Sequence record: PX104378.1
From: a phage
Strand: one strand, 5' to 3'
Length of the DNA: 64,000 nucleotides
Shown here: positions 34,847 to 58,381 of the stretch, one piece after another
Layout of the letters: the number at the start of each line of letters is the position of its first letter
Numbering within the stretch: position 1 is the stretch's first letter
The notes under the pieces: generated by a model
Database searches by the model: none
What the model was told of the DNA's origin: nothing
What the model saw: only the letters and a program-made list of their open reading frames with translations
Position numbers and translations under genes: made by a program

Positions 34847-34875
34847 ATTATAGGGGATCGATGATCCCCTGTCAA
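34847..34875 (-). promoter_or_regulatory. Early promoter cassette P1 (TTGACA-N17-TATAAT, GC palindrome in spacer)
   Basis: Minus strand TTGACAggggatcatcgatccccTATAAT then conserved leader gcacacataccgaaacgaa; drives 34598..34810. Confidence 0.6.
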
Positions 34876-34882
34876 CAACTTT

Positions 34883-35401
34883 TTAGTTATTTTTTAATTG
34901 CTCATCTTGCAATAAAGCAATCACATGCTGGCGATGTTCTTCCGATTGAGGCACACCGAAAAAGTTTGTTTTGTAGAAATACTCTAATCGGTCTTCTCGT
35001 GTGCTCTCTTCCATCATGATCGCGGGTAGTCCGAGATTTCGGAAACGTCGCTTTTCTGCTGGCGTAAAATCGCTGTAATACAGCATAGAATCATCATTAC
35101 CAGCAATGCTAAACTCATCCTTCATGAAGGAGAATATTGCGTTTAAACGCTGTTTACCGTCCACTATTTCGATTTCATAGCGAGAGCCATCATCAATCTT
35201 AGCCATTGCGATAGCACCAACCGGAAAATCATTAATCAGGTTTTCGATAAACATACGTTTGTTTTCGGTGTCCCATACCAAAGGACGCTGATAATCTGGG
35301 TTCATGTTGATATAGCCATCTTCTAACCACGCCTCATAAACAGAGATGACAAAGTTTTTAGTATTGGTATAGTAACGGCGTTTAGGAGTTAAACGGTTCA
35401 T
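34883..35401 (-). CDS. DUF262/ParB-like (GmrSD N-terminal domain-like) protein
   Basis: 172 aa; motifs PDYQRPLVWD and VDGKQRLNA (DGQQR-type); ATGA overlap with upstream ORF. Confidence 0.7.
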   Translation of the reverse strand: MNRLTPKRRYYTNTKNFVISVYEAWLEDGYINMNPDYQRPLVWDTENKRMFIENLINDFPVGAIAMAKIDDGSRYEIEIVDGKQRLNAIFSFMKDEFSIAGNDDSMLYYSDFTPAEKRRFRNLGLPAIMMEESTREDRLEYFYKTNFFGVPQSEEHRQHVIALLQDEQLKNN

Positions 35402-35577
35402 AGTGTGCTTACCTTTTCAATATATGCGTCCGCATACTGGCGAATGCTCATTTCTTCTCGTACTGCTGCTACAAATTCTTTCATGGATTCAAACCATTTG
35501 TAGGTGTCGCGATACATGACCAACTCTTCCCAAGTAAGATCGCAAATCTCTTTACCGTGTAGTTGTGGTGTTATCAT
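35398..35577 (-). CDS. Small hypothetical protein (59 aa), not in ORF table
   Basis: ATG overlaps stop of zinc-ribbon gene (ATGA) and its stop overlaps ATG of DUF262 gene; translation MITPQLHGKEICDLTWEELVMYRDTYKWFESMKEFVAAVREEMSIRQYADAYIEKVSTL. Confidence 0.5.
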   Translation of the reverse strand: MITPQLHGKEICDLTWEELVMYRDTYKWFESMKEFVAAVREEMSIRQYADAYIEKVSTL

Positions 35578-35912
35578 AATATAGTTCTCCTGAATGGATC
35601 ATCACGTAAATCAATATCTTTTAAGAACTCATCCCATGAATAGCGGATATTGTTCTTAATTCTCCAGATAAGCGCAGGGATTGAACGCTCTCCCATCTGG
35701 AAGTATGGATCGTATGATCCGTATGCCCAATATGCTACTACAATTCCACAATCAGCGCAATAGTATTCTATTTCACTTGCTGGCGACAAAAGTCCATCAA
35801 TATGATCAGTGATCTTGCTTTCGATGTTATGGCTATGACAATCAGGGCAACGGATGCAATGACCTTGTTTATCGTAATTTGACGTTAGCGAATACTTAAA
35901 CAATCTCATCAT
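35574..35912 (-). CDS. Zinc-ribbon protein
   Basis: 112 aa; CIRCPDCHSH ... YYCADCG; ATGA overlap with upstream methyltransferase-like gene. Confidence 0.65.
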   Translation of the reverse strand: MMRLFKYSLTSNYDKQGHCIRCPDCHSHNIESKITDHIDGLLSPASEIEYYCADCGIVVAYWAYGSYDPYFQMGERSIPALIWRIKNNIRYSWDEFLKDIDLRDDPFRRTIL

Positions 35913-36625
35913 AGATCCTTATTGGCTTCAAATACTGCCTTTGCGAATCCTCGCGGGGTAAGTGACCTGATAGTCTTTGTTCTGGTTCCTTTCCCGCCTA
36001 GCTTAGAATGCTGTTTACTGTACCCTTTCTCAATCGGCAACGGTTTCTTTTCTGGCATTATAAAGCCTTGTCCGGTCCATAAGCAAGTCTTTTTCGGGTA
36101 CATATCACGGGCGGCAATATACTCAGGAAACGTAGGATGTATATCATCTTCCGGCAAATAACCGCCATATTCCCACGGGTGGAACATGTAATCAGGCTTA
36201 CGCCACATGCTAGAGATAACGCTTACAGGATTCTCTATCATGTAGGGAACTCCTAGCCATTCACCCAAATAAGCGGTTATTTTAGCTGCCCGTACATCAT
36301 GAACTTGAATTAATGGTCCTTGCTCTCGTTTCTTTCGTTCAAAGTGTGCAGCGCCACTAACAGCTAAATTGGTACACGGTGGGAATGCAAAGATAATATC
36401 CGGTTTCCCCCATTCAAGGTCCATTGCTCTTTCCAGCCAATTCAAATCAATCCATGTGTTTACATAGGTAATGTTTGGATGTTCAAATCGGGTATTATAT
36501 TTTTTGTATGTACCGTGGTCGCCGTCGTCAGCATTGAAGCAGATCACCTTATGACCTGCTTTAGCCCATTCTAGCCCCATTATCCCCGATCCGTCAAAGT
36601 TGCAGAATATTAATTTTTGTTTCAT
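35909..36625 (-). CDS. C5-pyrimidine methyltransferase-fold protein (Dcm-like catalytic core, no obvious target-recognition domain)
   Basis: 238 aa; motif I-like FDGSGIMG, motif IV-like FPPCTNLAVSG (Pro-Cys), ENV-like IENPV. Confidence 0.6.
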   Translation of the reverse strand: MKQKLIFCNFDGSGIMGLEWAKAGHKVICFNADDGDHGTYKKYNTRFEHPNITYVNTWIDLNWLERAMDLEWGKPDIIFAFPPCTNLAVSGAAHFERKKREQGPLIQVHDVRAAKITAYLGEWLGVPYMIENPVSVISSMWRKPDYMFHPWEYGGYLPEDDIHPTFPEYIAARDMYPKKTCLWTGQGFIMPEKKPLPIEKGYSKQHSKLGGKGTRTKTIRSLTPRGFAKAVFEANKDL

Positions 36626-36867
36626 ATACGCCCCTTTAACCCAACACAGATTTTAGAAGGTTCTTTACCGTGCCACATTAAGTAAAGTCCGTTAGTGCGG
36701 CCTTGTTTTGTATATGATTCTTTTCTAATCTTCTTATAGTGTCGTGCTTCCTCAACCGATTGTTTAGAATACCAATCATAAAGGAAGATGAACAAAGGCC
36801 AACCATTAGCGGCCTTAATGCAGTTATTAAGAAATTCCTTATTGCGTTTAATTAATTTTCTTTTCAC
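36622..36867 (-). CDS. Small basic hypothetical protein
   Basis: 81 aa ORF; apparent GTG start overlapping stop of upstream gene; start uncertain. Confidence 0.45.
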   Translation of the reverse strand: MKRKLIKRNKEFLNNCIKAANGWPLFIFLYDWYSKQSVEEARHYKKIRKESYTKQGRTNGLYLMWHGKEPSKICVGLKGRI

Positions 36868-37115
36868 GCTGCCCCCGTTGGTTTGATAGTAACAGAATCT
36901 AAAAGACCTTTGTTAGCCAGTTCGCGGCAAGTTTTCAGATCCGCAACTTCCCAGCCAGCCGCAATCAGGTTATCTATGAGGCTGTTAGCAACTTCCTCGC
37001 TCATGAAAGAGCACTGTTTGCCGATGGTGTAGCGTACACGCTGTAATTTCAGTTTACGGAAGCCTTTAACGTTCAGGTCTTTAGCGATTTTCTTTGCGGT
37101 TTCGATGTTAGCCAT
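36864..37115 (-). CDS. Small early protein
   Basis: 83 aa; ATG with SD downstream of promoter cassette. Confidence 0.6.
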   Translation of the reverse strand: MANIETAKKIAKDLNVKGFRKLKLQRVRYTIGKQCSFMSEEVANSLIDNLIAAGWEVADLKTCRELANKGLLDSVTIKPTGAA

Positions 37116-37155
37116 TGTTTGATTCTCCTAAGTGGTATCTCGTCTTGATGGTTGT

Positions 37156-37184
37156 ATTGTAGGGGAGTTATCCTCCCCTGTCAA
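37156..37184 (-). promoter_or_regulatory. Early promoter cassette P2 (TTGACA-N17-TACAAT, palindromic spacer)
   Basis: Same architecture upstream of 36864..37115; coords +/-2. Confidence 0.55.
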
Positions 37185-37198
37185 CACTTTTTATAAAA

Positions 37199-37366
37199 TT
37201 ATTTGTTAATTTCTGGTGCGTTGCTAGGATAGTAACCTTCTTTAACTCCGAGGTATTTCGCAACCATCCCTACAATCTTCTGTGCTACTACAATGTCAAA
37301 TTTCAGATAATCTTCGCCGTGGGTTTCAATGATATATGCTTCACATGCTGCTTTAGTCTCGAACAT
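37199..37366 (-). CDS. Small early protein (55 aa), copy A of a duplicated gene; not in ORF table
   Basis: MFETKAACEAYIIETHGEDYLKFDIVVAQKIVGMVAKYLGVKEGYYPSNAPEINK; about 85-90 percent identical to 40461..40628; promoter cassette upstream. Confidence 0.6.
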   Translation of the reverse strand: MFETKAACEAYIIETHGEDYLKFDIVVAQKIVGMVAKYLGVKEGYYPSNAPEINK

Positions 37367-37399
37367 TTTGATTCTCCTATTTCGTTTCGGTATGTGTGT

Positions 37400-37428
37400 A
37401 TTATAGGGGATCTCCCGATCCCCGTCAA
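37400..37428 (-). promoter_or_regulatory. Early promoter cassette P3 (TTGACG-N17-TATAAT, palindromic spacer)
   Basis: Upstream of 37199..37366; conserved leader. Confidence 0.55.
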
Positions 37429-37442
37429 CAACTTTTTTAAAA

Positions 37443-37724
37443 TTATTCGTGATTAGTTTCGATGTTGTACATTTTGCACCAGTTCAGCCAATCGCCCAGA
37501 TCTTGATAGTTGATGCTTTTATCTGCGGCCATCGTTTTTGTCTTGATACCCATATGTGCGTTATGAGTAAGCATTTTTACAGTGAACTCAATTTTATCGC
37601 CTTTAGCTTTAACATCAACCAGTTTGGTCCACTGGCTACCAGCACCGCGAATGTTCATACCAACGATGTTTCCGATGTATGCTTCTTTGTTTTTCAGGAT
37701 TTCGGTTGCTTTGATGAATTTCAT
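37443..37724 (-). CDS. Small early protein
   Basis: 93 aa; ATG with SD downstream of promoter cassette. Confidence 0.6.
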   Translation of the reverse strand: MKFIKATEILKNKEAYIGNIVGMNIRGAGSQWTKLVDVKAKGDKIEFTVKMLTHNAHMGIKTKTMAADKSINYQDLGDWLNWCKMYNIETNHE

Positions 37725-37757
37725 TTTTGATTCTCCAGTTCGTTTCGGTATGTGTGT

Positions 37758-37786
37758 ATTATGCTATGTTCTTACTTTGGTGTCAA
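37758..37786 (-). promoter_or_regulatory. Early promoter cassette P4 (TTGACA-N17-CATAAT)
   Basis: Upstream of 37443..37724; conserved leader; no palindrome. Confidence 0.55.
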
Positions 37787-37795
37787 CAACTTTTT

Positions 37796-38065
37796 TTAGA
37801 TATTTTCAGAAATAAATTTTAAAACTTGACGTAAATGTTTCTCATCTTTGATGGTAGCCGGAAGTTCTTCTTTTACTTCCTGTGCAAGATAGATATTTCC
37901 GTTCCAAGTGAAAGATCCGTCTTCGTTTACTCGATAGCTGAACATCCACTCGCAATCATTTTCGATTTCATATACACACAGAAGGGTGTAATCGTTAAAG
38001 CTATTGATTTCAAGGTCGAAGCCGTGACGTTTTGCAAAGTTGGTAGTGGTTTTAGTCAGTGCCAT
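37796..38065 (-). CDS. Small early protein
   Basis: 89 aa; ATG with SD downstream of promoter cassette. Confidence 0.6.
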   Translation of the reverse strand: MALTKTTTNFAKRHGFDLEINSFNDYTLLCVYEIENDCEWMFSYRVNEDGSFTWNGNIYLAQEVKEELPATIKDEKHLRQVLKFISENI

Positions 38066-38105
38066 TGTTTGATTCTCCTAAGTGGTATCTCGTTTCGATG
38101 TGTGT

Positions 38106-38134
38106 ATTATGCTATAGGCTAGACCAGGTGTCAA
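38106..38134 (-). promoter_or_regulatory. Early promoter cassette P5 (TTGACA-N17-CATAAT)
   Basis: Upstream of 37796..38065. Confidence 0.55.
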
Positions 38135-38160
38135 CAACTTTTTTTAATTTTTTTGGAAAT

Positions 38161-38184
38161 AAAAAAGCCGACGCTAAGGTCGGC
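38161..38184 (-). terminator. Intrinsic terminator after 38193..38501
   Basis: Minus-strand hairpin GCCGACC-TTAGC-GTCGGC followed by TTTTTT. Confidence 0.6.
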
Positions 38185-38192
38185 TAATAAAA

Positions 38193-38501: not shown

Positions 38502-38524
38502 AGTATTATCCTCAATAGTTGGAT

Positions 38525-38546
38525 GAAAAGGGGGCTTAACGCCCCC
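38525..38546 (-). terminator. Intrinsic terminator after 38552..38839
   Basis: Minus-strand hairpin GGGGGCG-TTAA-GCCCCC followed by TTTTC. Confidence 0.55.
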
Positions 38547-38551
38547 ATATA

Positions 38552-38839
38552 TTAAAACAGTCCTTCTTGTACGCCGTAGTAGAGTTCGTCGCTGATAATT
38601 TCATTAATGCGACGGTGTGCATATTCCTGATTTGCGAAGTTGTCAGCAAGTTCTACTTTAGTTTCGCCGTCATGAGTCCATTTAGTGATAACTTTACCAT
38701 CTGCAAATTTGAAGTTGAACTCTTTAGCTACTGCATCGCGTACCAGACGTGCAAACTTGTTGTTACGGATTGCATTATCGGTTTCGTGTGCAGCGTGAGC
38801 AAATTTGTTAACTTTCAGCGTGATAGTGATGTATGCCAT
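38552..38839 (-). CDS. Small early protein
   Basis: 95 aa; ATG with SD downstream of promoter cassette; terminator downstream. Confidence 0.6.
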   Translation of the reverse strand: MAYITITLKVNKFAHAAHETDNAIRNNKFARLVRDAVAKEFNFKFADGKVITKWTHDGETKVELADNFANQEYAHRRINEIISDELYYGVQEGLF

Positions 38840-38885
38840 AATTTGATTCTCCTAGTTAGAAAGTGTATCTCGTTTCGATGGGTGT

Positions 38886-38914
38886 ATTATGCTATACACC
38901 CGATCTTATGTCAA
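38886..38914 (-). promoter_or_regulatory. Early promoter cassette P6 (TTGACA-N17-CATAAT)
   Basis: Upstream of 38552..38839. Confidence 0.55.
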
Positions 38915-38920
38915 CACTTT

Positions 38921-39199
38921 TTATAAAATAATTTTTTGATATTTTTCTATGATGTTCGTGTAATCCACATCAACCGCTATCACCGTTGCTTCGAATCCAC
39001 CGTTTAGCCAATGGCTATGGTCATGATCGTGAAAGAAACCAAGACCAGTACGAAGACCTTCTTTATATTCGGCGCGTACATTTAGATCATCATCGATAAA
39101 CAGATAAAACCATGAATTTTTACTAGGATTGATGATACAACCTTTCAGATTAGGGAGAATATCACGACTAAGAATAAACTTATCACCTACTTTGAACAT
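38921..39199 (-). CDS. HxHxHW-family small protein (paralog 2)
   Basis: Start trimmed to ATG with SD GAGGA (table start is GTG); WFYLFIDDDL ... HDHDHSHWL ... VIAVDV. Confidence 0.65.
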   Translation of the reverse strand: MFKVGDKFILSRDILPNLKGCIINPSKNSWFYLFIDDDLNVRAEYKEGLRTGLGFFHDHDHSHWLNGGFEATVIAVDVDYTNIIEKYQKIIL

Positions 39200-39203
39200 A
39201 ATA

Positions 39204-39727: not shown

Positions 39728-39729
39728 AA

Positions 39730-40204: not shown

Positions 40205-40216
40205 AATATATTCCTC

Positions 40217-40396
40217 TTAGAAAGGGATGGTCATTTCTTGAGCTTGTACATTCTCGTTAGGATTAAACTTCATCCAACCGATATTGTCTACCAGCATATG
40301 CACATTTTTATCATATCCTACGTGAGTAGTCAATACTGTATGTGCTTTACCTTCAACGATGATTTCCATGTACTTCTGAACTTCGATAGCTTTCAT
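40217..40396 (-). CDS. Small early protein (59 aa), not in ORF table
   Basis: ATG with SD downstream of promoter-like cassette; MKAIEVQKYMEIIVEGKAHTVLTTHVGYDKNVHMLVDNIGWMKFNPNENVQAQEMTIPF. Confidence 0.5.
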   Translation of the reverse strand: MKAIEVQKYMEIIVEGKAHTVLTTHVGYDKNVHMLVDNIGWMKFNPNENVQAQEMTIPF

Positions 40397-40428
40397 TTTG
40401 ATTCTCCGTTTGTTGTCTTGATGGGAGT

Positions 40429-40457
40429 ATCTTACTACTCCCTTTAATCATTGTCAA
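40429..40457 (-). promoter_or_regulatory. Promoter-like cassette P7 (TTGACA, weak -10 TAAGAT, palindromic spacer)
   Basis: Upstream of 40217..40396; degenerate -10. Confidence 0.4.
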
Positions 40458-40460
40458 CGA

Positions 40461-40628
40461 TTATTTGTTAATTTCCGGTGCGTTGCTTGGATAGTAACCT
40501 TCTTTAACACCCAGATATTTTGCAACCATTCCGGTGATCTTCTGTGCTACTACGATATCGAATTTCAGGTAGTCTTCACCGTGGTTTGCTACAATGTATG
40601 CTTCGCATTCTGCTTTAGTCTGGAACAT
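40461..40628 (-). CDS. Small early protein (55 aa), copy B of duplicated gene
   Basis: Start trimmed to MFQTKAECEAY (table start lies inside the promoter); near-identical to 37199..37366. Confidence 0.6.
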   Translation of the reverse strand: MFQTKAECEAYIVANHGEDYLKFDIVVAQKITGMVAKYLGVKEGYYPSNAPEINK

Positions 40629-40662
40629 TTTTGATTCTCCTATATCTCGTTGGTATGTGTGC

Positions 40663-40692
40663 ATTATAGGGGATCGGTGACCCCCCTGTCAA
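40663..40692 (-). promoter_or_regulatory. Early promoter cassette P8 (TTGACA-N18-TATAAT, GC-rich spacer)
   Basis: Upstream of 40461..40628; conserved leader. Confidence 0.55.
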
Positions 40693-40699
40693 CAACTTT

Positions 40700-41002
40700 T
40701 TATTCTTCGTCTTTATCTTTATATGCGTATTTCATAAATTTGTCTGCCACTTCGTCCGCGTTTTCAGGTTCTACGTCTGACGCTAGGACAACAGCTAGTT
40801 CGGTTTTGTCGTTTCCATCATACCAATGATTATGAGTGTCGTTTTCTTCGATATAAAACGAATCATTTGGATATGGGCGACAATATACGTCTAAATTCCC
40901 ATCGATATAAAAGATCCAATCCGAATACAAAATGATTGTTTTAGCCAGATTTTTATTGTCTCTTACAAAAGGTTCCGCGACAAATAGCTTAGTTTGTTCC
41001 AT
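40700..41002 (-). CDS. HxHxHW-family small protein (paralog 5)
   Basis: Start trimmed to ATG after SD GAGGAG (MEQTKLF); IFYIDGNLDV ... DTHNHWY ... VVLASDV. Confidence 0.6.
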   Translation of the reverse strand: MEQTKLFVAEPFVRDNKNLAKTIILYSDWIFYIDGNLDVYCRPYPNDSFYIEENDTHNHWYDGNDKTELAVVLASDVEPENADEVADKFMKYAYKDKDEE

Positions 41003-41605: not shown

Positions 41606-41785
41606 TTACATAACAATCACGCCAGCCGTTGAAAGTTGATGTTTCAACTGAGCATTTTCTGCTACTGTCAAATCAATGATTTCTTGTGACGCTGCAATCA
41701 TATAACCATTGGTGATATTGTTTTGCATCAGTTCAATGGTTTCTTCGTTGTAGCGGATTTTAGCGATGATTTCGTTGAAGTTCAT
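41606..41785 (-). CDS. Small early protein (59 aa), not in ORF table
   Basis: ATG with SD downstream of promoter cassette; MNFNEIIAKIRYNEETIELMQNNITNGYMIAASQEIIDLTVAENAQLKHQLSTAGVIVM. Confidence 0.5.
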   Translation of the reverse strand: MNFNEIIAKIRYNEETIELMQNNITNGYMIAASQEIIDLTVAENAQLKHQLSTAGVIVM

Positions 41786-41819
41786 GTTTGATTCTCCTAG
41801 TTCGTTTCGGTATGTGTGT

Positions 41820-41848
41820 AGTATAGGGGATCACCGATCCCCTGTCAA
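41820..41848 (-). promoter_or_regulatory. Early promoter cassette P9 (TTGACA-N17-TATACT, palindromic spacer)
   Basis: Upstream of 41606..41785; conserved leader. Confidence 0.55.
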
Positions 41849-41861
41849 CAACTTTTTTGAA

Positions 41862-42338
41862 TTATTTTTCTTGATGCTCGCGCTCGTACTTTTCGAAATA
41901 AAATTCTACTGGCTGGTCGTGGATTGACAGTAAGCCAAAGCGTTTAGCCGCTCGCAACCCCATATTGCGCTGAATGTACTTCTGGAAGTTCTCGCGTATA
42001 CACTTACGCCAGTATTCTAAGCCCATACAGCTTTTATAAAGATTGCATTGCACACACGCCGGATTCATGTTATCAAGTATATCATGCTCCGGTTTATGCA
42101 TTCCTACAACCTTATACTTCCACGATCCATCATCATTACGGGCAATTCGTCCATTTTCATCATAGACTACTTTTGAGCGTCGTAATACTGGTTTGATGTG
42201 GTCTGCGTGCCAGCGATCCCCTAGTTCCTCGCCACAATAGGCACAACGTCCACCATATTTCATTTTCAGGATCTGGCGTTGCTCTTTCTTTGACAATTTT
42301 TTAGGTTTAGGGGCTTTCGCCCCTTCATTATCACACAT
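41862..42338 (-). CDS. HNH endonuclease
   Basis: 158 aa; CAYCGEEL ... HADHIKPV ... CVQCNLYK; 8-nt overlap with DNA ligase stop. Confidence 0.75.
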   Translation of the reverse strand: MCDNEGAKAPKPKKLSKKEQRQILKMKYGGRCAYCGEELGDRWHADHIKPVLRRSKVVYDENGRIARNDDGSWKYKVVGMHKPEHDILDNMNPACVQCNLYKSCMGLEYWRKCIRENFQKYIQRNMGLRAAKRFGLLSIHDQPVEFYFEKYEREHQEK

Positions 42339-49244: not shown

Positions 49245-49643
49245 TTAACTTTCCAGAATATCGCGAGCTTCGTTACGCTCCTTGATGATTTTCAGGACAA
49301 ATTCCAGTTTTTCTTTGTTCAGTGTTCCGTTTTCCATTGCTTCTTTGACGGTAAACACTCCGCCACCTTGCCCGTATACAGTGACAGTGATTTCACCTAA
49401 CATCGTGGTATGAAAACCGCCAATTTTCGGTGATTCGAAAGAAACAATTACCTCGCGGACAGTATTACCGTCGTTGATTTCTGAGAGGGTAATGTCGTTT
49501 TTGTAGGCGGTTGCTTTAACCATACGGATCAGCATAGTCTGATCTGGGGAGATGGTCATTTTGTCCATTGCATGTTGCAATGCAGCGTAACCGAAAACTT
49601 TAACGAAATCCAGAACGTCTTTGCGAGTTTGAAATTTAATCAT
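49245..49643 (-). CDS. Hypothetical early protein
   Basis: 132 aa; ATG with SD downstream of promoter cassette; terminator downstream. Confidence 0.6.
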   Translation of the reverse strand: MIKFQTRKDVLDFVKVFGYAALQHAMDKMTISPDQTMLIRMVKATAYKNDITLSEINDGNTVREVIVSFESPKIGGFHTTMLGEITVTVYGQGGGVFTVKEAMENGTLNKEKLEFVLKIIKERNEARDILES

Positions 49644-49684
49644 CTTGATACTCCTTAGTAAGTTAGTTTCGTTTCGATGGGGGT

Positions 49685-49713
49685 ATATTACTACCCCCGT
49701 TCCATGCTGTCAA
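49685..49713 (-). promoter_or_regulatory. Early promoter cassette P10 (TTGACA-N17-TAATAT, palindromic spacer)
   Basis: Upstream of 49245..49643; -35 abuts stop codon of upstream gene. Confidence 0.5.
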
Positions 49714-49932
49714 CTACTTTTTAATGACAAGTTCGAATTTTGCTACCTTGCGTCCTCTTTTATTGAAAGCAACCCACGGACGGTTTTCAATGTAGAACAA
49801 TTCTTCGCCAATAAAGAATACTGGCTGATTGTAAAGGCGACCCATCAGGTCACGCTGGCGAATGGTAGTAGATTCGTATACTTCTCCTACTACAAAGTGT
49901 TTGCTGATAGAGTCGGTGCAAGTAAATTTCAT
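49714..49932 (-). CDS. Small early protein
   Basis: 72 aa; promoter cassette upstream. Confidence 0.55.
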   Translation of the reverse strand: MKFTCTDSISKHFVVGEVYESTTIRQRDLMGRLYNQPVFFIGEELFYIENRPWVAFNKRGRKVAKFELVIKK

Positions 49933-49965
49933 TTTGATTCTCCTTTGTTTCTTTTCGATGGGGGT

Positions 49966-49994
49966 ATATTACTACCCCCGTTATTCAGTGTCAA
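49966..49994 (-). promoter_or_regulatory. Early promoter cassette P11 (near copy of P10)
   Basis: Upstream of 49714..49932. Confidence 0.5.
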
Positions 49995-50001
49995 CTACTT
50001 T

Positions 50002-50220
50002 TTACTTGTTGTATTCATTCCACCATTGGGTGAGCTTATCAATTATTTTTGTGTTTCTATCCAACTTATCCCACCGTTTTCGAGGGTTTATCAACCGGAA
50101 TAGGTAAGGTGTACTTGTTAAGTGGACTCGGTCAATATAGTGATTGATGTACTGTTTTTCGATTCTAAGTTTCATCTTTTTACGATGAAAATATGCAATG
50201 ACTTGTTCTTCTGTTTCCAT
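50002..50220 (-). CDS. Small early protein
   Basis: 72 aa; promoter cassette upstream. Confidence 0.55.
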   Translation of the reverse strand: METEEQVIAYFHRKKMKLRIEKQYINHYIDRVHLTSTPYLFRLINPRKRWDKLDRNTKIIDKLTQWWNEYNK

Positions 50221-50244
50221 ATGTTCCTCCGTTTCGATGTGCGT

Positions 50245-50273
50245 ATTATGCTATGGCAAGATCCTATTGTCAA
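50245..50273 (-). promoter_or_regulatory. Early promoter cassette P12 (TTGACA-N17-CATAAT)
   Basis: Upstream of 50002..50220. Confidence 0.5.
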
Positions 50274-50284
50274 CACCCAATAAC

Positions 50285-50308
50285 AAAAAAGTCGCCACTA
50301 TGGGCGAC
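50285..50308 (-). terminator. Intrinsic terminator after 50321..50797
   Basis: Minus-strand hairpin GTCGCCC-ATAG-TGGCGAC followed by TTTTTT. Confidence 0.6.
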
Positions 50309-50320
50309 TTTGAACAAACA

Positions 50321-52310: not shown

Positions 52311-52477
52311 TATTCGACAACCTCAAAGCATTTATCATCAGGAAGAATAGCCCATTCTACGCCGTATTCATCCTCAACGTAGTAGCAAGCCCCATCATGT
52401 CGAGCATCATATACATCACCGACAACAAAGCTATCGGCTAGTTCAAAATCTACAGCAACACATTTTAATTTGATCAT
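52310..52477 (-). CDS. Small protein (55 aa)
   Basis: Start trimmed to ATG (MIKLKCVAVDF) with SD GAGGA; promoter-like element upstream. Confidence 0.5.
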   Translation of the reverse strand: MIKLKCVAVDFELADSFVVGDVYDARHDGACYYVEDEYGVEWAILPDDKCFEVVE

Positions 52478-52508
52478 AATAAAATCCTCACTTGTTTTTG
52501 ATGGTTGA

Positions 52509-52537
52509 ATTATAGCGGGGATTTCTCCCCGCGTCAA
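52509..52537 (-). promoter_or_regulatory. Promoter-like cassette P15 (TTGACG-N17-TATAAT, palindromic spacer) just after nrdA stop
   Basis: Upstream of 52310..52477; the hairpin may double as a post-nrdA structure. Confidence 0.45.
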
Positions 52538-52545
52538 CACTTATT

Positions 52546-54789
52546 TTACAGCTTGCAAGATGAACATTCGCTAGCGTCTTCCGTACCATCAGCACCATCA
52601 CGCACGTTAGCGTAATACAGTGTCTTGAGGCCGTAATATTGAGCAAACAACATATCATCTAATACATCAGCAATATCGACTTTACCAGTCTTATAAGTGC
52701 TTGGATCGTAGGATGTATTGGAACTAATCGCCTGATCTACAAACTTCTGCATGATCGCTGCCAGTGTCAGATAAGGCTTGTTACCTTTCTTGATCAGTGT
52801 CCAAAGCAGGTCAATAACATCAGCATTATTCTCTACGTTCGGAATAACCTGATTAAATTGCCCTTCTTTCGATCCTTTAACCGATACAATCCCGCGAGGC
52901 GGTTCAATACCGTTTGTACTGTTAGACACCTGAGAAGACGACTCACAAGGCATCAGCGCCGAAAGCGTACTGTTACGAATGCCATATTTTTTCAGGTCTT
53001 CGCGCAGTTCTTCCCAATCCATCTCATACACCGGGTCAACCAGTTCATCTACTGTCTTTTTGTACCAGTCGATAGGCAGTTCACCGCGTCCATAACGTGT
53101 TTCGTGTATCAGTTCGCAAGCACCTTTCTCTTTAGCCAGTTGCACACTAGCCTTAATCAGAGCATATTGCAAGCGTTCAAACGTTTTATGCGTAAACTCG
53201 TTAGCGTCTTCATATGTGAAGAAATTATCCGCCAGATATGATGCAAAGTTAGTCACACCAACACCCAGAGAGCGACGTTTTTTGGCTGTCAGAGCTTGTT
53301 CTACAGGATAATCCTGATAATCTAACAGGTTGTCAAGTGCACGCACCATAACCATAGCGATCCGCTCTACTTCTTCCATATTTTCGATATCGAAATTACC
53401 TAAAACATATGCTGCCAAAGTACATAGGCTGATCTCTGAATCATCACGACCCATCGGTTTTGTCGGCAGAGCAATTTCACAACACAGGTTAGATTGTTTA
53501 ATCGGTGCTACATTACGAATAAACGCCCCGTGATTGTTCATGTTGTCTGTGAACGCTGGATAGATTCGACCAGTGTTAAAACGTTCAATTGCCACCGCTA
53601 AAAACAGGTCTTCGGCTTTAACACGAGTTTTACGAACACTCGGATCTTTTTCCAGTTTTTCGTAAAGCTGGCGGAAACCTTCCTCATCTCGGAAGTACAG
53701 ATCCCACAACAAGCCACCCGCAACATCTGGACTAAACAGAGTAATGTAATCCCGTTTAAGGAATCGCTCTACCATCAGGTTATTAATCTGTACGCCGTAG
53801 TCAAGATGGCGAATGCGGTTATCTTCCACGCCCTTATTGTTCTTTAACACAATCAGACTTTCAAACTCTAAATGCCACATTGGGTAATAGAGTGTCGCTG
53901 CCCCGCCACGAATACCGCCTTGTGAGCATGACTTAACGGCAGTCTGAAAATGTTTCCAGAATGGGATAACGCCAGTATGACGAACTTCACCATGCCCGAT
54001 CTTAGATCCTTCCGCGCGAATCATACCAGCATTGATACCGATGCCAGCACGCTTGCTAATATACTTGATGATTGCATTTGCGGTTTCATTAATACCCTGC
54101 AATGAATCATCAGATTCGATCACCACACACGAACTAAATTGTCGTGTTGGAGTACGCACACCAGCCATAATCGGAGTAGGCAGAGAGATTTGCTTATTCG
54201 CAACAGCATTATAAAAATCAATCACATGTTCAAGTCGATTTTCTGTCTCTTCTTGATGCAAGCACATACCGATCAGCATATACGCAAATTGCGGTGTTTC
54301 GATGATTTTCTTAGTGCTGCGATCCTGAACAAGATACTTCTCTTTTAACTGCATTGCACCCGCATAGGTCATTTTAAAATCAAGTTTATGGTCGATGAAT
54401 TTCTCCAGATATTCCACTTCTTCACGGGAATATTTTTGCAGAATTTCGCGATCATATTTTCCGGTTGCAATATTACGCTCAATATGGCTATAAAAATCAA
54501 TAGGTTGGAATTGACCGTATACTGATTTACGAAGTGCGAACATTGCAAGGTTACTTGCTACATATTGATAATCAGGTGTTTCTACAGTAATGTTATCTGC
54601 GGCGACCTTAATCAATACTTTCTGGATATCATTGGTAGACATACCTTCTGTCAGAAGTGGTTCAACCATATCAAACAATTCATATGGATCAACGTTATGA
54701 CCTTCGGCTGCCGCTTCCAGAATTTTCATTACTTTTTCTTTTTCAAACGGAACAGTCAGACCGGAAGACTTAACAACATTTTTAATCAT
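52546..54789 (-). CDS. nrdA: Ribonucleotide reductase alpha subunit
   Basis: 747 aa vs T4 NrdA 754 aa; ATP-cone N-terminus; C-terminal CSSCKL redox tail. Confidence 0.92.
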   Translation of the reverse strand: MIKNVVKSSGLTVPFEKEKVMKILEAAAEGHNVDPYELFDMVEPLLTEGMSTNDIQKVLIKVAADNITVETPDYQYVASNLAMFALRKSVYGQFQPIDFYSHIERNIATGKYDREILQKYSREEVEYLEKFIDHKLDFKMTYAGAMQLKEKYLVQDRSTKKIIETPQFAYMLIGMCLHQEETENRLEHVIDFYNAVANKQISLPTPIMAGVRTPTRQFSSCVVIESDDSLQGINETANAIIKYISKRAGIGINAGMIRAEGSKIGHGEVRHTGVIPFWKHFQTAVKSCSQGGIRGGAATLYYPMWHLEFESLIVLKNNKGVEDNRIRHLDYGVQINNLMVERFLKRDYITLFSPDVAGGLLWDLYFRDEEGFRQLYEKLEKDPSVRKTRVKAEDLFLAVAIERFNTGRIYPAFTDNMNNHGAFIRNVAPIKQSNLCCEIALPTKPMGRDDSEISLCTLAAYVLGNFDIENMEEVERIAMVMVRALDNLLDYQDYPVEQALTAKKRRSLGVGVTNFASYLADNFFTYEDANEFTHKTFERLQYALIKASVQLAKEKGACELIHETRYGRGELPIDWYKKTVDELVDPVYEMDWEELREDLKKYGIRNSTLSALMPCESSSQVSNSTNGIEPPRGIVSVKGSKEGQFNQVIPNVENNADVIDLLWTLIKKGNKPYLTLAAIMQKFVDQAISSNTSYDPSTYKTGKVDIADVLDDMLFAQYYGLKTLYYANVRDGADGTEDASECSSCKL

Positions 54790-57009: not shown

Positions 57010-57339
57010 TCAGATCATTTTAAAGTAGTTTTCGTTAACGTTTTCTTCATTAATTTCTGATTTAAACACTGTGCCATCATCAGGACAGACATAATATCGT
57101 TCTGAATAGTCACGATACTTTTTCAGTAGGCTGACACCAACGTTAACACCATTTTCCCAGAAACGAAAGATAATTTTATCGGCAGTGTAACGATAATCAC
57201 TTTGAATCAGGCTACCATCACCGCGACGAGACTCATAAATTGTAATACAATTGCGGTTGGCTGTATTAAGACATTCCTCAATAGTACCACAAGACAGAAT
57301 TTCGATTGATCCGTTAACTTCTTGTTCTACAGTCCACAT
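57010..57339 (-). CDS. Hypothetical protein
   Basis: 109 aa ORF. Confidence 0.5.
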   Translation of the reverse strand: MWTVEQEVNGSIEILSCGTIEECLNTANRNCITIYESRRGDGSLIQSDYRYTADKIIFRFWENGVNVGVSLLKKYRDYSERYYVCPDDGTVFKSEINEENVNENYFKMI

Positions 57340-57361
57340 AATGTAATCCTCACTTTGTATT

Positions 57362-57685
57362 TCACTGTTTTTTGCTCATATTATATGCTTCTAGTGACAG
57401 GTCGTCAACCATCGAAGAAATCTCATTAAGAAAATCTTTTTCCATATATGCCATCAAAGAGTTTGATTCTTTGATATGTTGTATAGCAGTCTCACTTAGA
57501 ACTCCTTCCCCTAAAAATAATGCAACAAGAACACTATCTGGGATATGAATCTCATCATAATCATCGATTCCTTTCTGTACTCGAATAGTGGCTTTTGTTG
57601 TGTTGTGTGTCATGTCTAATTTTGAGAAAAGTTCTACGTTCGGATACTTGTTACTTTTCTTATGCAGTGTCGCGTTCAATAACAT
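57362..57685 (-). CDS. Hypothetical early protein
   Basis: Start trimmed to ATG (MLLNATL; table start is TTG) with SD GGAGGA; promoter cassette upstream. Confidence 0.55.
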   Translation of the reverse strand: MLLNATLHKKSNKYPNVELFSKLDMTHNTTKATIRVQKGIDDYDEIHIPDSVLVALFLGEGVLSETAIQHIKESNSLMAYMEKDFLNEISSMVDDLSLEAYNMSKKQ

Positions 57686-57715
57686 AGGCAAGTTCCTCCA
57701 TTGTTTCGATGTTTG

Positions 57716-57744
57716 TATTATACAATACTATGTTACTTTGTCAA
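57716..57744 (-). promoter_or_regulatory. Early promoter cassette P13
   Basis: TTGACA with TAATAC/ATAATA-like -10 upstream of 57362..57685. Confidence 0.45.
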
Positions 57745-58323
57745 CTCTTTTTCAAAAGATTTTACGATATACATGATAGTGCTCAATTCGGACGGTGCTA
57801 CTGTTTCTGTGTAGCCATCCGGCATATCTTTTTTTGAGATATAGGAAGTTTTACCTTTCATCGCTTCCTTGATCTTGTTCTCTAATTCTAAGATCTTTTG
57901 ACCGTCTTGTAAAGTCAATTCATAAAAGATCTCATGGTCGAATTTAGAAACACGAGATTGGTCTTTCATTCGTGCTTTAGTTGTTAAGTTAGTTATTCCA
58001 AATTTAACACCAACAAAATTATTATTGTTGATTAGTCTCTGGATATACAGAGTTCCAATTTTTAATGTATTGTATCCATAGTGGGCACATTTAGGGCAAC
58101 GTCTTCCTTTCTGAAACTCCATTATTGGTTGAGTGTATGTATGCCCTTCGCTACATGTCAAATTTAATTTTGTCTTATTACCTTTCCATTCTCCAATGAA
58201 TCCATTGAAGGTTATATTTTCTTTTTCAAAGACTGGTTTCAATCTTTCATAATATTCAATTGGCGATATAGAACGATTGCTTTTTCTTACCCATTCAATC
58301 TCATGTGCTTGACGTACTAACAT
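57733..58323 (-). CDS. Hypothetical protein with zinc-finger-like CxxC...CPKC and possible degenerate GIY-YIG-like segment
   Basis: Start trimmed to ATG (MLVRQ) with SD GGAGGA because the longer table start lies inside the promoter -10/-35; KIGTLYIQRL..FVGVKFGITN. Confidence 0.5.
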   Translation of the reverse strand: MLVRQAHEIEWVRKSNRSISPIEYYERLKPVFEKENITFNGFIGEWKGNKTKLNLTCSEGHTYTQPIMEFQKGRRCPKCAHYGYNTLKIGTLYIQRLINNNNFVGVKFGITNLTTKARMKDQSRVSKFDHEIFYELTLQDGQKILELENKIKEAMKGKTSYISKKDMPDGYTETVAPSELSTIMYIVKSFEKELTK

Positions 58324-58353
58324 AATTTTATCCTCCGTTGTTTCGATGAGTTC

Positions 58354-58381
58354 ATTATACATTACCTCGCCAACATGTCAA
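58354..58381 (-). promoter_or_regulatory. Early promoter cassette P14 (TTGACA-N16-TATAAT)
   Basis: Upstream of 57733..58323; overlaps the longer table ORF start, which was therefore rejected. Confidence 0.5.

What the first reader, a model, noticed from the sequence alone, without database searches (positions are those of the whole stretch)
34847..58381. Family of at least 15 repeated early-promoter cassettes, about half with a GC-rich palindrome filling the 17-bp spacer
A roughly 60-bp element recurs upstream of small minus-strand genes: A/T run, TTGACA, 16-18 bp spacer, TATAAT-like -10, then a conserved leader (g)CACACATACCGAAACGAA and an SD. In at least eight copies the spacer is a GC-rich inverted repeat whose sequence differs between copies while the palindrome is preserved (for example GGGGATCATCGATCCCC, GGGGATCGGGAGATCCCC, GGGGAGTTATCCTCCCC, GGGGGTAGTAATATACCCCC). 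That covariation points to selection on a hairpin/cruciform or a dyad operator rather than on sequence. The conserved transcribed leader also suggests a shared 5' UTR signal.
Basis: seen in the sequence. Interest (0 to 1): 0.65.

Follow-up and report, generated by a model that had tools for sequence, protein, structure and literature searches.

The report
Known phage promoter–stem-loop cassettes (PeSLs)
The repeated elements are real, but they are the already published "PeSL" cassettes of RB49-like T4-type coliphages: strong host-type early promoters fused to a GC-rich stem-loop, which drive small early genes and serve as recombination points for shuffling those genes.

Summary
The window comes from a Krischvirus, an RB49-like T4-type coliphage. 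A profile search finds exactly 15 copies of a 70-100 bp cassette, all on the minus strand, between 34808 and 58435. Each has an A/T tract, TTGAC(A/G), a 16-18 bp spacer, a -10 box, a conserved leader, a Shine-Dalgarno sequence and a start codon.

Ten of the 15 copies carry a strong GC hairpin (dG <= -12 kcal/mol, against 1.7% of genomic windows). Only six of these fill the spacer. Three further copies have a canonical terminator just upstream instead, and two have no hairpin.

These are the promoter-early stem-loops (PeSLs) of Arbiol et al. 2010 and Comeau et al. 2014. Several window copies are orthologs of named RB49 PeSLs. One is the ortholog of the PeSL whose promoter was tested with lacZ.

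New support found here:
- Internal hairpins and upstream terminators are mutually exclusive.
- A chimeric PeSL in phage JK32 marks a PeSL-flanked gene indel relative to the window.

Strict column-wise covariation is thin. A dyad operator or cruciform is not supported.

Verdict: observation confirmed with corrections, already known, low interest.

The parts
34808..34895 (-). Cassette 1. -35 TTGACA at 34875-34870; -10 TATAAT ends at 34847. Spacer hairpin AGGGGATC-atc-GATCCCCT at 34870-34852. Start codon at 34810 (70-aa ORF).
37113..37204 (-). Cassette 2. -35 at 37184. Spacer hairpin GGGGAG-gataa-CTCCCC at 37179-37161. -10 TACAAT. Start codon at 37115 (83-aa ORF).
37364..37448 (-). Cassette 3. 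-35 TTGACG at 37428. Hairpin GGGGATC-ggga-GATCCCC at 37423-37406, which includes the last base of the -35 box. Start codon at 37366 (55-aa ORF). Identical in promoter and leader to RB49 PeSL192/191. The ORF is a PeSL-flanked indel relative to phage JK32.
37722..37805 (-). Cassette 4. -35 at 37786; -10 CATAAT. No strong hairpin and no upstream terminator. Start codon at 37724 (93-aa ORF).
38063..38187 (-). Cassette 5. -35 at 38134; -10 CATAAT. No core hairpin. A canonical terminator hairpin plus T-run (AGCCGAC-cttagc-GTCGGCT TTTTT) lies at 38187-38166, just upstream of the A/T tract. Start codon at 38065 (89-aa ORF).
   Evidence: (D11)
38837..38933 (-). Cassette 6. -35 at 38914. Hairpin GGGTGTAT-agcata-ATACACCC at 38901-38880, straddling the -10 box CATAAT. 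Start codon at 38839 (95-aa ORF). The RB49 ortholog carries the compensated stem GGGGATAT/ATATCCCC.
40394..40474 (-). Cassette 7. -35 at 40457. Hairpin GGGAGTA-gtaaga-TACTCCC at 40442-40423, straddling the -10 box TAAGAT. Start codon at 40396 (59-aa ORF).
40626..40704 (-). Cassette 8. -35 at 40692; 18-bp spacer. Hairpin GGGGGGTC-acc-GATCCCCT at 40686-40668, with two G.U pairs. Start codon at 40628 (55-aa ORF). Ortholog of RB49 PeSL206/205, whose promoter was measured with lacZ.
41783..41868 (-). Cassette 9. -35 at 41848. Spacer hairpin AGGGGATC-ggt-GATCCCCT at 41843-41825. -10 TATACT. Start codon at 41785 (59-aa ORF). Ortholog of RB49 PeSL210/209, where the loop is ACC.
49641..49733 (-). Cassette 10. 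-35 at 49713. Hairpin GGGGGTA-gtaata-TACCCCC at 49698-49679, straddling the -10 box TAATAT. Start codon at 49643 (132-aa ORF).
49930..50008 (-). Cassette 11. -35 at 49994. The same -10-straddling hairpin as cassette 10, at 49979-49960. Start codon at 49932 (72-aa ORF).
50218..50313 (-). Cassette 12. -35 at 50273; -10 CATAAT. No core hairpin. A canonical terminator (AAAGTCGCC-catagt-GGCGACTTT TTTG) lies at 50313-50288, upstream. Start codon at 50220 (72-aa ORF).
52475..52556 (-). Cassette 13. -35 TTGACG at 52537. Hairpin GCGGGGA-gaaa-TCCCCGC at 52532-52515. -10 TATAAT. Start codon at 52477 (55-aa ORF, downstream of nrdA).
57683..57763 (-). Cassette 14. -35 at 57744; 16-bp spacer; -10 TATAAT. 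No strong hairpin. The upstream ORF's stop codon overlaps the promoter. Start codon at 57685 (107-aa ORF).
58321..58435 (-). Cassette 15. -35 at 58381; 16-bp spacer. No core hairpin. A canonical terminator (AGCCTCCC-ttcg-GGGAGGCT TTTTT) lies at 58435-58414, upstream. Start codon at 58323 (196-aa ORF).
   Evidence: (D11)
32399..32480 (-). A further PeSL-type site outside the finding's range and outside the 15-copy homology family. -35 TTGACT at 32462; -10 TATACT ends at 32434. Hairpin AACGGGGACTAG...CTAGCCCCGTT at 32454-32425, straddling the -10 box and followed by TTTTCTG. It lies upstream of a 274-aa ORF (the Alt-like ADP-ribosyltransferase paralog).
   Evidence: gene identity

Best explanation
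The 15 elements are PeSLs (promoter-early stem-loops), the composite regulatory cassettes described for RB49 and phi1. Each is a near-consensus host sigma70 promoter read by unmodified E. coli RNA polymerase right after infection. Its parts are an A/T-rich UP-like tract, TTGACA, a 17-bp spacer, a -10 box and a C-rich discriminator. A short unstructured leader and a strong Shine-Dalgarno sequence follow, driving a small early gene.

In most copies the stop codon of the upstream gene sits in the A/T tract, 0-14 nt before the -35 box. That leaves no room for a separate terminator. Instead, a G-run/C-run stem-loop is built into the promoter, either inside the spacer or across the -10 box. The hairpin lies upstream of the cassette's own start site, so it exists only in RNA that reads through from the upstream cassette. 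There it acts as a terminator, attenuator or 3'-end structure that insulates neighbouring cassettes.

Because about 70-100 bp is conserved between copies, the cassettes are also patches of homology. The phage recombination system uses them to delete, insert and swap the small genes they flank.

Shown:
- promoter activity and stem-loop termination for RB49 orthologs or class-mates (literature);

Inferred:
- that every hairpin class terminates;
- that the Shine-Dalgarno block is a RegB site.
For: Identity of the phage:
- The window is 94-98% identical to Krischvirus genomes (JK32, Skers, RB49) across the alt-to-gene-30 hyperplastic region.

Match to the published elements:
- Window copies match named RB49 PeSLs: 37428 = PeSL192/191, 40692 = PeSL206/205, 41848 = PeSL210/209.
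- Arbiol et al. 2010 define PeSLs exactly this way, with the stem-loop between -35 and -10, overlapping -10, or upstream in the AT region.
- They report about 13,000 Miller units for PeSL206/205. They also report termination comparable to rrnB T1 for the spacer stem-loop of PeSL211/210.
- Nolan et al. 2006 report that the RB49 early consensus (C-rich -3 to -1, T or C at -12) agrees with 5'-end mapping.
- The GEC-3S GenBank record annotates 7 promoters exactly at the 7 family hits.

- 15 copies are found by profile search.
- 10 of 15 copies have hairpins at dG <= -12, against a 1.7% background.
- The upstream stop codon lies 0-14 nt from the -35 box in hairpin copies, and 47-62 nt away where a canonical terminator is present.
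- Among 96 unique copies from 7 genomes, 58 have a core hairpin and none of these has an upstream terminator. Of the 38 without a core hairpin, 21 have one (Fisher P = 4e-11).
- 14 of the 15 downstream ORFs are unrelated, so the cassette is conserved independently of the genes.
- JK32 carries a chimera of window cassettes 37428 and 37184 and lacks the 55-aa ORF between them.
- Chimeric stems occur in relatives.
Against: - None of the internal hairpins is followed by a U-tract. T counts in the next 8 nt are 1-4 for spacer hairpins and 1 for hairpins straddling the -10 box. None passes the terminator scan. Canonical intrinsic termination is therefore doubtful, especially for the -10-straddling class.
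- Only one spacer stem-loop has been tested experimentally.
- Two of the 15 copies have neither a hairpin nor a terminator.
- The copies in the exclusivity test are orthologs and paralogs, so they are not independent.
- The bias toward G.U over A.C imperfections, which would point to a sense-strand RNA role, is weak: about 7 against 2 by my hand tally of stem-internal non-Watson-Crick pairs in the listing. The script's own totals there are dominated by -35/-10 flank extensions.
- No transcript data exist for this particular phage.
Confidence: 0.88

Rival explanations
1. The internal hairpins are not terminators. They are RNA 3'-end protection or processing structures for the upstream mRNA. Read-through transcripts are cut, for example by RNase E or RegB in the A-rich leader, and trimmed back to the GC hairpin. 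This stabilises the upstream message and uncouples it from the downstream one.
For: - No U-tract follows any internal hairpin.
- Hairpins sit 15-35 nt after the upstream stop codon.
- The leader carries a RegB-like GGAGAATCAAA block in 9 of 15 copies, and GGAGGATAAAA in one more.
- G.U pairs are tolerated in stems.
Against: - The one stem-loop tested (PeSL211/210, spacer class) reduced downstream lacZ as strongly as rrnB T1. This points to a transcriptional or polar effect.
- No 3'-end data are available.
- This reading is not exclusive of the main explanation.
Confidence: 0.25
2. The palindrome acts on double-stranded DNA, either as a dyad operator for a phage early protein or as a supercoil-dependent cruciform, and it switches the promoter off or on.
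For: - The palindromes are placed inside the promoter core.
- The outer GGGG...CCCC is shared by nearly all stems.
- Arbiol et al. speculate that this motif could be the target of a DNA-binding protein.
- From memory: engineered palindromes between -35 and -10 can make a promoter sensitive to cruciform extrusion (Horwitz and Loeb 1988).
Against: - Arm sequences beyond GGGG/CCCC differ, loops differ, and palindrome centres fall in two separate registers: mid-spacer and on the -10 box.
- The hairpin can be replaced by an ordinary terminator upstream of the promoter. This is not expected of an operator.
- Arms are only 6-8 bp, which is short for cruciform extrusion by general knowledge.
- G.U-containing stems, such as 40692, would be A.C mismatches on the other strand.
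- Stems run G then C much more often than C then G, an asymmetry a symmetric dimer site would not need.
Confidence: 0.07
3. The palindromes are primarily DNA-level recombination signals. They would act as hairpin or junction substrates, or as a binding site for a recombination protein, that target crossovers to the cassettes. Transcriptional effects would be secondary.
For: - The crossover in the JK32/window chimera maps to the -10/discriminator region, next to the hairpin.
- Chimeric stems have breakpoints in the loop.
- The loop alternates GGT/ACC at orthologous loci, as expected from palindrome inversion.
- The authors speculate along these lines.
Against: - T4-type recombination needs only short homology, which the 70-100 bp cassette provides without any special signal.
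- Copies without hairpins belong to the same recombining family.
- Loop alternation can equally arise from conversion between paralogs.
- No dedicated recombinase is known.
Confidence: 0.1
4. The repeats are by-products of tandem gene duplication, with promoters copied along with paralogous genes. The palindromes would then be chance features of a few founder sequences.
For: - One pair of downstream ORFs is paralogous: 37428 and 40692, 89% amino-acid identity (D6, 59).
- Within one register, covariation reduces to two haplotypes.
Against: - The other 13 downstream ORFs are unrelated.
- About a dozen distinct stems occur in two registers.
- Hairpin enrichment has P = 5e-15 against genomic background, and only 1 of 27 other promoter-like sites has a comparable hairpin.
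Confidence: 0.02

Closest known systems
PeSLs (promoter-early stem-loops) of coliphages RB49 and phi1 (Arbiol, Comeau, Kutateladze, Adamia, Krisch 2010, Genome Biol Evol 2:140; PMC2839356)
   Same: - Same phage genus and same hyperplastic region (alt to gene 30, and the nrd/td region).
- Same anatomy: AT-rich tract containing the upstream stop codon, sigma70 consensus -35 and -10 boxes, a G-run/C-run stem-loop between the boxes, across -10 or upstream, then a Shine-Dalgarno sequence and start codon.
- Several window copies are sequence orthologs of named RB49 PeSLs.
- The same association with gene indels is seen.
   Different: Nothing essential differs. This genome has its own complement of cassettes: 15 strongly homologous copies in the window, against 15-19 in the same region of relatives. 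It also has some allele differences in stems and loops.
PeSL-like motifs of T4/PST and KVP40/nt-1 (Comeau, Arbiol, Krisch 2014; PMC4122927)
   Same: Composite promoter-terminator motifs in hyperplastic regions that mediate modular shuffling.
   Different: Those stems have other consensus forms: A3-4G3-loop-C3T3-4 in nt-1 and AGNA-loop-TCNT in PST. The RB49/phi1 form, seen here, is Gn-loop-Cn. T-even promoters are of the T4 early type rather than plain sigma70 consensus.
Rho-independent (intrinsic) terminators
   Same: A GC-rich hairpin placed shortly after a stop codon. It is functionally interchangeable with canonical terminators in cassettes 5, 12 and 15.
   Different: No U-tract follows the internal hairpins. 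The sequence after the stem is the -10 box or the discriminator and leader.
T4 RegB/S1 cleavage sites in early-gene Shine-Dalgarno regions (consensus GG*AGRAYARAA; review PMC3014915)
   Same: The cassette's Shine-Dalgarno block GGAGAATCAAA (9 copies) matches 10 of 11 consensus positions. GGAGGATAAAA (1 copy) matches all 11. All lie in early-gene translation initiation regions.
   Different: Cleavage by the diverged RB49-type RegB at these sites was not tested here. No statement about these sites was found in the papers I read.
Morons and integron cassettes (analogies drawn by Arbiol et al.)
   Same: Single genes that travel with their own promoter and terminator.
   Different: In PeSLs the regulatory sequence itself is the recombination substrate, and no integrase is known.

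Membership tests
PeSL (RB49/phi1 type) | [quoted passage not shown] | tested here: met
   All 15 copies score 10-12 of 12 hexamer matches with 16-18 bp spacers. All but 50273 and 40457 have an A/T-rich tract with an A-run just upstream of the -35 box. They are the top-scoring promoter-like sites in the region.
PeSL (RB49/phi1 type) | A stable stem-loop, typically polyG then polyC, in one of the described positions: between -35 and -10, overlapping a box, or in the upstream AT region | tested here: met
   6 copies have the stem-loop between the boxes, 4 across the -10 box and 3 upstream with a T-run. 2 copies have none.
PeSL (RB49/phi1 type) | Intergenic position in a hyperplastic region: the upstream stop codon lies in the AT-rich part, and a Shine-Dalgarno sequence and start codon of a small ORF lie at the 3' end | tested here: met
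   The stop codon lies 0-14 nt before the -35 box in hairpin copies. A Shine-Dalgarno sequence and ATG follow 17-39 nt after the predicted start site. Downstream ORFs are 55-196 aa. The region corresponds to RB49 ORFs 185-240.
PeSL (RB49/phi1 type) | Sequence homology to the published RB49 PeSLs | tested here: met
   RB49 PeSL192/191, 206/205 and 210/209 were extracted from NC_005066. They match window copies 37428, 40692 and 41848 through the leader and ORF start.
PeSL (RB49/phi1 type) | Association with insertion, deletion or replacement of the flanked ORFs between close relatives | tested here: met
   JK32 has one chimeric cassette where the window has two cassettes and a 55-aa ORF. Relatives cover only 35-99% of this region.
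PeSL (RB49/phi1 type) | Promoter activity and terminator/attenuator activity in vivo | not testable with these tools
   The literature reports lacZ fusions for RB49 PeSL206/205 (promoter) and for the PeSL211/210 stem-loop (terminator). Nothing has been measured for this phage.
Intrinsic (Rho-independent) terminator | GC-rich hairpin immediately followed by a U-rich tract (at least 5 T in 8) | tested here: not met
   Internal hairpins have 1-4 T in the next 8 nt, and none passes the terminator scan. The three upstream hairpins of cassettes 5, 12 and 15 do pass.
Dyad-symmetric operator | The same half-site sequence at the same position in all regulated promoters | tested here: not met
   About 12 different arm sequences occur. 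Palindrome centres fall in two registers about 10 bp apart. 5 of 15 copies have no core palindrome.
Cruciform-regulated promoter | Inverted repeat long enough to extrude under physiological supercoiling, with both strands able to pair | tested here: inconclusive
   Arms are 6-8 bp with 3-6 nt loops. Some stems contain G.U pairs that are A.C on the other strand. The judgement that such arms are too short rests on general knowledge, not on a test.

The most novel reading that the evidence does not exclude
Promoter-embedded G-run/C-run hairpins that lack a U-tract might be more than compact terminators. They could be a general phage device that also acts at the DNA level, through hairpin-driven template switching or junction cleavage that focuses recombination on the cassette. 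Three observations hint at this:
- loop inversion (GGT and ACC alternate at the same locus);
- crossovers that map to the loop or -10 region;
- an excess of TTGACA-GGGG...CCCC-TATAAT promoters in many unrelated viral contigs (44 loci, against 6-7 for each control arrangement).

None of this is described in the PeSL papers I read.
Probability: 0.12. Interest if true: 0.5.

Novelty: already known. Interest (0 to 1): 0.15.

Why it matters
PeSLs are a worked example of how large lytic phages shuffle accessory genes. A portable promoter-plus-insulator doubles as the homology patch for recombination, which is the 'linker' of Botstein's modular theory.

Recognising them in this window has practical value for annotation. 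They mark early transcription units and cassette boundaries in the hyperplastic regions.

The finding adds no new kind of element. The small additions made here sharpen open questions about mechanism:
- internal hairpins and ordinary terminators are mutually exclusive;
- the internal hairpins lack U-tracts;
- a new PeSL-mediated indel is documented;
- the Shine-Dalgarno block resembles a RegB site.

The open questions are whether the hairpins terminate transcription, stabilise RNA or act on DNA.

Tried and rejected
- **Leader search.** An exact-leader search finds only 4 copies. It was replaced by an nhmmer profile.
- **Promoter regex.** My first strict regex missed copies with a CATAAT, TAATAT or TAAGAT -10 box, or with a TTGACG -35 box.
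- **Rfam.** A gathering-threshold scan of 30000-64000 found no RNA family.
- **tRNA scan.** No tRNA genes were found.
- **Strand-asymmetry test.** I compared G.U against A.C imperfections in stems. The raw script counts (X:37, U:8) are dominated by an artefact, the -35/-10 bases flanking the stem. After excluding these by hand, about 7 G.U and 2 A.C remain, too few to decide.
- **Column-wise covariation.** In the -10-straddling register 96.6% of cells are paired, but only one pair changes on both sides, and it is linked to a loop polymorphism. This is haplotypes plus recombinants, not strong compensatory evidence.
- **Mixed alignment.** An alignment mixing the two -10-straddling registers was unusable for a single structure and was discarded.
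- **Desplats et al. [quoted passage not shown] It is not held in the library, so the mapping is cited second-hand through Nolan et al. 2006.
- **Other viral contigs.** I checked whether the non-Krischvirus IMG/VR contigs carry repeated cassette families. Mostly there is a single site per locus, so the repeated-family property was not shown outside T4-like phages.

Full report
**What the window is.** A 12-kb piece of the finding's range is 94-98% identical to Krischvirus genomes, the RB49-like 'pseudo-T-even' coliphages. The best-covering matches are Shigella phage JK32, Escherichia phages Skers, AV108 and Makalu_003, and RB49. Annotation of these relatives places the range in the leftward-transcribed early region: alt, about 25 small hypothetical ORFs, gene 30 ligase, gene 31, cd, pseT, rnlA, denA, nrdB, nrdA, td, frd and gene 32. 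In RB49 these are ORFs 185-241. Across relatives, coverage of the alt-to-ligase segment ranges from 35% to 99%. That is the signature of a hyperplastic region.

**Checking the observation.** The exact leader string CACACATACCGAAACGAA occurs 4 times, against 0.07 expected. A profile built from the aligned copies and searched with nhmmer finds exactly 15 hits with E between 4e-16 and 4e-10. The next hit has E = 0.42. All 15 are on the minus strand, between 34825 and 58401.

Thirteen copies have TTGACA and two have TTGACG. The spacer is 17 bp in 12 copies, 16 bp in 2 and 18 bp in 1. The -10 box is TATAAT, TACAAT, TATACT, CATAAT, TAATAT or TAAGAT. In the consensus scan of 34000-53000, the family supplies 10 of the 12 sites with 11 or more of 12 hexamer matches. 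The other two also lie on the minus strand.

Each copy is followed by a Shine-Dalgarno sequence and a start codon, 17-39 nt after the predicted start site. The downstream ORFs are 55-196 aa. Only one pair of the 15 downstream proteins is related (37428 and 40692, 89% identity). The cassette is therefore conserved independently of what it drives.

**The palindromes.** Ten of the 15 copies fold at -12 to -15 kcal/mol over a 38-nt core that runs from the end of the -35 box to about +3. Only 1.7% of 18,276 windows of the same length from both strands reach -12 (binomial P = 5e-15). Composition-preserving shuffles give 0.04 such copies on average. Of 27 other sigma70-like sites in the window, one has a comparable hairpin. 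So the palindromes are real and specific to these cassettes.

The copies fall into four groups:
- Six hairpins lie within the spacer (34875, 37184, 37428, 40692, 41848, 52537). Two of these, 37428 and 52537, also take in the last base of the -35 box.
- Four hairpins straddle the -10 box. The 5' arm is the end of the spacer, the loop is most of the -10 hexamer, and the 3' arm is the discriminator up to -1. These are 38914, 40457, 49713 and 49994.
- Three copies (38134, 50273, 58381) have no core hairpin. They have a textbook terminator hairpin plus T-run just upstream of the A/T tract.
- Two copies (37786, 57744) have neither.

The example GGGGGTAGTAATATACCCCC belongs to the second group.

Across 88 unique cores from seven Krischvirus genomes and two IMG/VR contigs, palindrome centres are bimodal. 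They lie either mid-spacer or on the upstream half of the -10 box.

**It is a published element.** Arbiol et al. 2010 (PMC2839356) describe about 51 'promoter-early stem-loops' (PeSLs) in RB49 and 52 in phi1. Their description has these parts:
- an AT-rich region containing the upstream stop codon;
- sigma70-consensus -35 and -10 boxes;
- a Shine-Dalgarno sequence and start codon.

They cloned whole PeSLs in front of lacZ. Most clones picked up -35 or -10 mutations, and a wild-type PeSL206/205 clone gave about 13,000 Miller units. They also showed that the stem-loop of PeSL211/210 reduces downstream lacZ as much as rrnB T1. They proposed, and supported by PCR of mini-circles, that recombination between PeSLs deletes, inserts and swaps the flanked ORFans. 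Comeau et al. 2014 extended the concept to T4/PST and KVP40/nt-1 and call the RB49/phi1 stem 'GN-loop-CN'.

I extracted the named RB49 elements from NC_005066:
- PeSL206/205 is the ortholog of window copy 40692, with the same leader and the same ORF start, MFQTK.
- PeSL192/191 is identical in promoter and leader to window copy 37428.
- PeSL210/209 is the ortholog of window copy 41848.
- PeSL211/210, the tested terminator, is a spacer-filling hairpin (GGGGAT-cacgt-ATCCCC) of the same class as window copies 34875 and 41848.

Nolan et al. 2006 state that the predicted RB49 early-promoter consensus (T or C at -12, C-rich -3 to -1) agrees with 5'-end mapping by Desplats et al. 2002. I could not read Desplats et al. 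directly. The GEC-3S GenBank record annotates seven promoters, with -35 and -10 signals, exactly where the profile hits fall.

In hairpin-bearing copies the upstream ORF's stop codon lies 0-14 nt before the -35 box. In the three copies with a separate canonical terminator it lies 47-62 nt before. Among 96 unique copies from seven genomes:
- 58 have a core hairpin, and none of these has an upstream canonical terminator;
- 38 lack a core hairpin, and 21 of these have an upstream canonical terminator (Fisher P = 4e-11).

The loci in this test are related, so the P value overstates independence. Even so, the internal hairpin and an ordinary terminator appear to substitute for each other. This supports the published view that the stem-loop acts on transcripts arriving from upstream.

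All internal hairpins end at or before position -1, so they are not in the cassette's own mRNA. This is an inference from the standard -10 to +1 distance and.

Against a canonical mechanism, the internal hairpins are followed by 1-4 T in 8 nt (spacer class) or 1 T in 8 nt (-10 class). None passes the terminator scan. Only one spacer-class stem-loop has been tested. Whether the -10-straddling class terminates, pauses the polymerase or merely protects 3' ends remains open. I keep RNA 3'-end protection as the main rival.

**Recombination.** JK32 has a single cassette where the window has two. Its upstream flank, -35 box and hairpin match window copy 37428. From the leader onward it matches window copy 37184. 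The 55-aa ORF at 37366-37199 is absent from JK32. The crossover lies in the -10/discriminator segment. This is a fresh instance of the PeSL-mediated indel of Arbiol's figure 3.

Relatives also carry chimeric stems. GGGGGTA..TACTCCC gives a G.U pair, and GGGAGTA..TACCCCC gives an A.C mismatch. Cassette number in the homologous region varies from 15 to 19.

**Covariation.** About a dozen distinct stems exist:
- GGGGATC, GGGGAG, GGGGAT, GCGGGGA and GGGAG;
- GGGGGTA, GGGAGTA, GGGTGTAT, GGGGATAT and ATGCGGTTAT;
- AACGGGGCTAG at 32462.

Clear compensated differences occur between orthologs. For example, window 38914 has GGGTGTAT/ATACACCC where RB49 has GGGGATAT/ATATCCCC.

Within one register, however, the formal count is modest. 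For 21 distinct -10-straddling cores, 96.6% of cells are paired. Only one of seven pairs changes on both sides (A-U 12, G-C 6, G-U 2, other 1). That pair is linked to a loop polymorphism, so it behaves as two haplotypes plus recombinants. The stronger argument for selection on structure is that different palindromes recur at two positions, and that the hairpin is interchangeable with an upstream terminator.

**Dyad operator or cruciform.** Several points argue against a DNA-level switch as the primary role:
- arm sequences and registers differ between copies;
- five copies lack a core palindrome;
- some stems contain G.U pairs;
- arms are only 6-8 bp;
- stems run G then C far more often than C then G.

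It cannot be formally excluded.

**The leader.** Two blocks are conserved:
- The start-site-proximal block is C-rich-CAT(ACC/C)GAAAC.
- The Shine-Dalgarno block is GGAGAATCAAA. It occurs 9 times in the window, all in cassettes. GGAGGATAAAA occurs in cassette 15. The pattern GGAGRAYNRAA has 12 matches against 1.2 expected.

This block matches the T4 RegB/S1 strong-site consensus GG*AGRAYARAA at 10-11 of 11 positions. The review also says RB49 has a diverged regB. That the cassettes' mRNAs are RegB targets is an inference, not a result.

**Wider distribution (side result).** A scan of IMG/VR for TTGACA-GGGG-N7-11-CCCC-TAYAMT gave 44 loci. Thirty-three of these loci lie in contigs other than the two Krischvirus contigs, and many of them have complementarity beyond the four forced pairs. 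The three control arrangements gave 7 loci (C4..G4), 6 (G4..G4) and 6 (C4..C4). After collapsing near-identical contigs the contrast is roughly 13 lineages against 5, 3 and 5. Most non-T4-like loci carry a single such promoter rather than a repeated family.

**Verdict.** The element class is already known and experimentally characterised in the type phage of this genus. Interest is low. The residual open questions are the mechanism of the hairpins that lack a U-tract and any DNA-level role.

Noticed in passing
window 41843-41825 and 40686-40668; orthologs in L003 (22909, 21771), L004 (21783), L005 (16324, 15198), L050 (13653, 12495), L002 (19090): At two orthologous loci the 3-nt loop of the palindrome GGGGATC-NNN-GATCCCC alternates between GGT and ACC in different Krischvirus genomes, while the arms stay identical. 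GGT and ACC are exact reverse complements. This fits inversion of the palindrome, or gene conversion between paralogous cassettes that carry opposite loops.
   Followed up: partly
window 37199-37448 versus L001 (JK32) around 17768: JK32 has one chimeric cassette: the 5' half of window copy 37428 joined to the 3' half of window copy 37184. It lacks the 55-aa ORF at 37366-37199. This is a cassette-flanked indel with its crossover in the -10/discriminator segment.
   Followed up: yes
L002 28996, L005 25081, L004 30794: Some relatives carry chimeric -10-straddling stems. GGGGGTA..TACTCCC gives a G.U pair, and GGGAGTA..TACCCCC gives an A.C mismatch. These indicate crossovers inside the hairpin loop between two stem alleles.
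   Followed up: partly
window, Shine-Dalgarno blocks at 37118-37128, 37367-37377, 37726-37736, 38068-38078, 38842-38852, 40397-40407, 40630-40640, 41787-41797, 49933-49943, 58326-58336: The Shine-Dalgarno region GGAGAATCAAA (9 copies) and GGAGGATAAAA (1 copy) closely matches the T4 RegB/S1 strong cleavage consensus GGAGRAYARAA. This suggests that the early cassette mRNAs are built to be inactivated by the phage RegB nuclease.
   Followed up: partly
window cassette spacers, for example 34866-34863, 38905-38902, 50263-50260; 88 unique cores from relatives: GATC, the Dam site, is frequent in the promoter spacers, with a sharp peak 9 nt after the start of the -35 box. It also occurs in cassettes without a spacer palindrome (19 of 61 unique non-class-A cores). 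GATC is over-represented in the window as a whole (388 observed, 233 expected). The cause could be shared ancestry of the spacers or a methylation-related role.
   Followed up: partly
window 32399-32480 (minus strand): One more promoter-plus-hairpin site lies just outside the finding's range. It has TTGACT, a 17-bp spacer and TATACT. A 12-bp-class hairpin straddles the -10 box (32454-32425) and is followed by TTTTCTG. It lies upstream of the 274-aa Alt-like ADP-ribosyltransferase paralog. It does not belong to the 15-copy homology family, but it fits the PeSL definition.
   Followed up: partly
IMG/VR loci L006-L049 (for example L007, L012, L014, L015, L018, L020, L023, L032): Promoters of the form TTGACA-GGGG...CCCC-TATAAT, with extended spacer palindromes, occur in many viral contigs unrelated to Krischvirus, including 174-366 kb contigs. 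There are 44 loci, against 6-7 for each of three control arrangements of the G and C runs. Several share a CCATCGA/CCATCAA motif right after the -10 box.
   Followed up: partly
window 37198-37369 and 40460-40631: There is a 172-nt direct repeat at 85% identity. It corresponds to two paralogous 55-aa ORFs (MFETK.. and MFQTK.., 89% amino-acid identity), each behind its own cassette. This is the only paralogous pair among the 15 downstream genes.
   Followed up: yes
window 39642-39731 and 39854-39943: There is a 90-nt direct repeat at 73% identity, 212 nt apart, on the strand opposite to its reading direction. It ends in ...TTTAAATTTGCTCAT, which suggests two tandem paralogous small ORF starts inside the hyperplastic region.
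   Followed up: no
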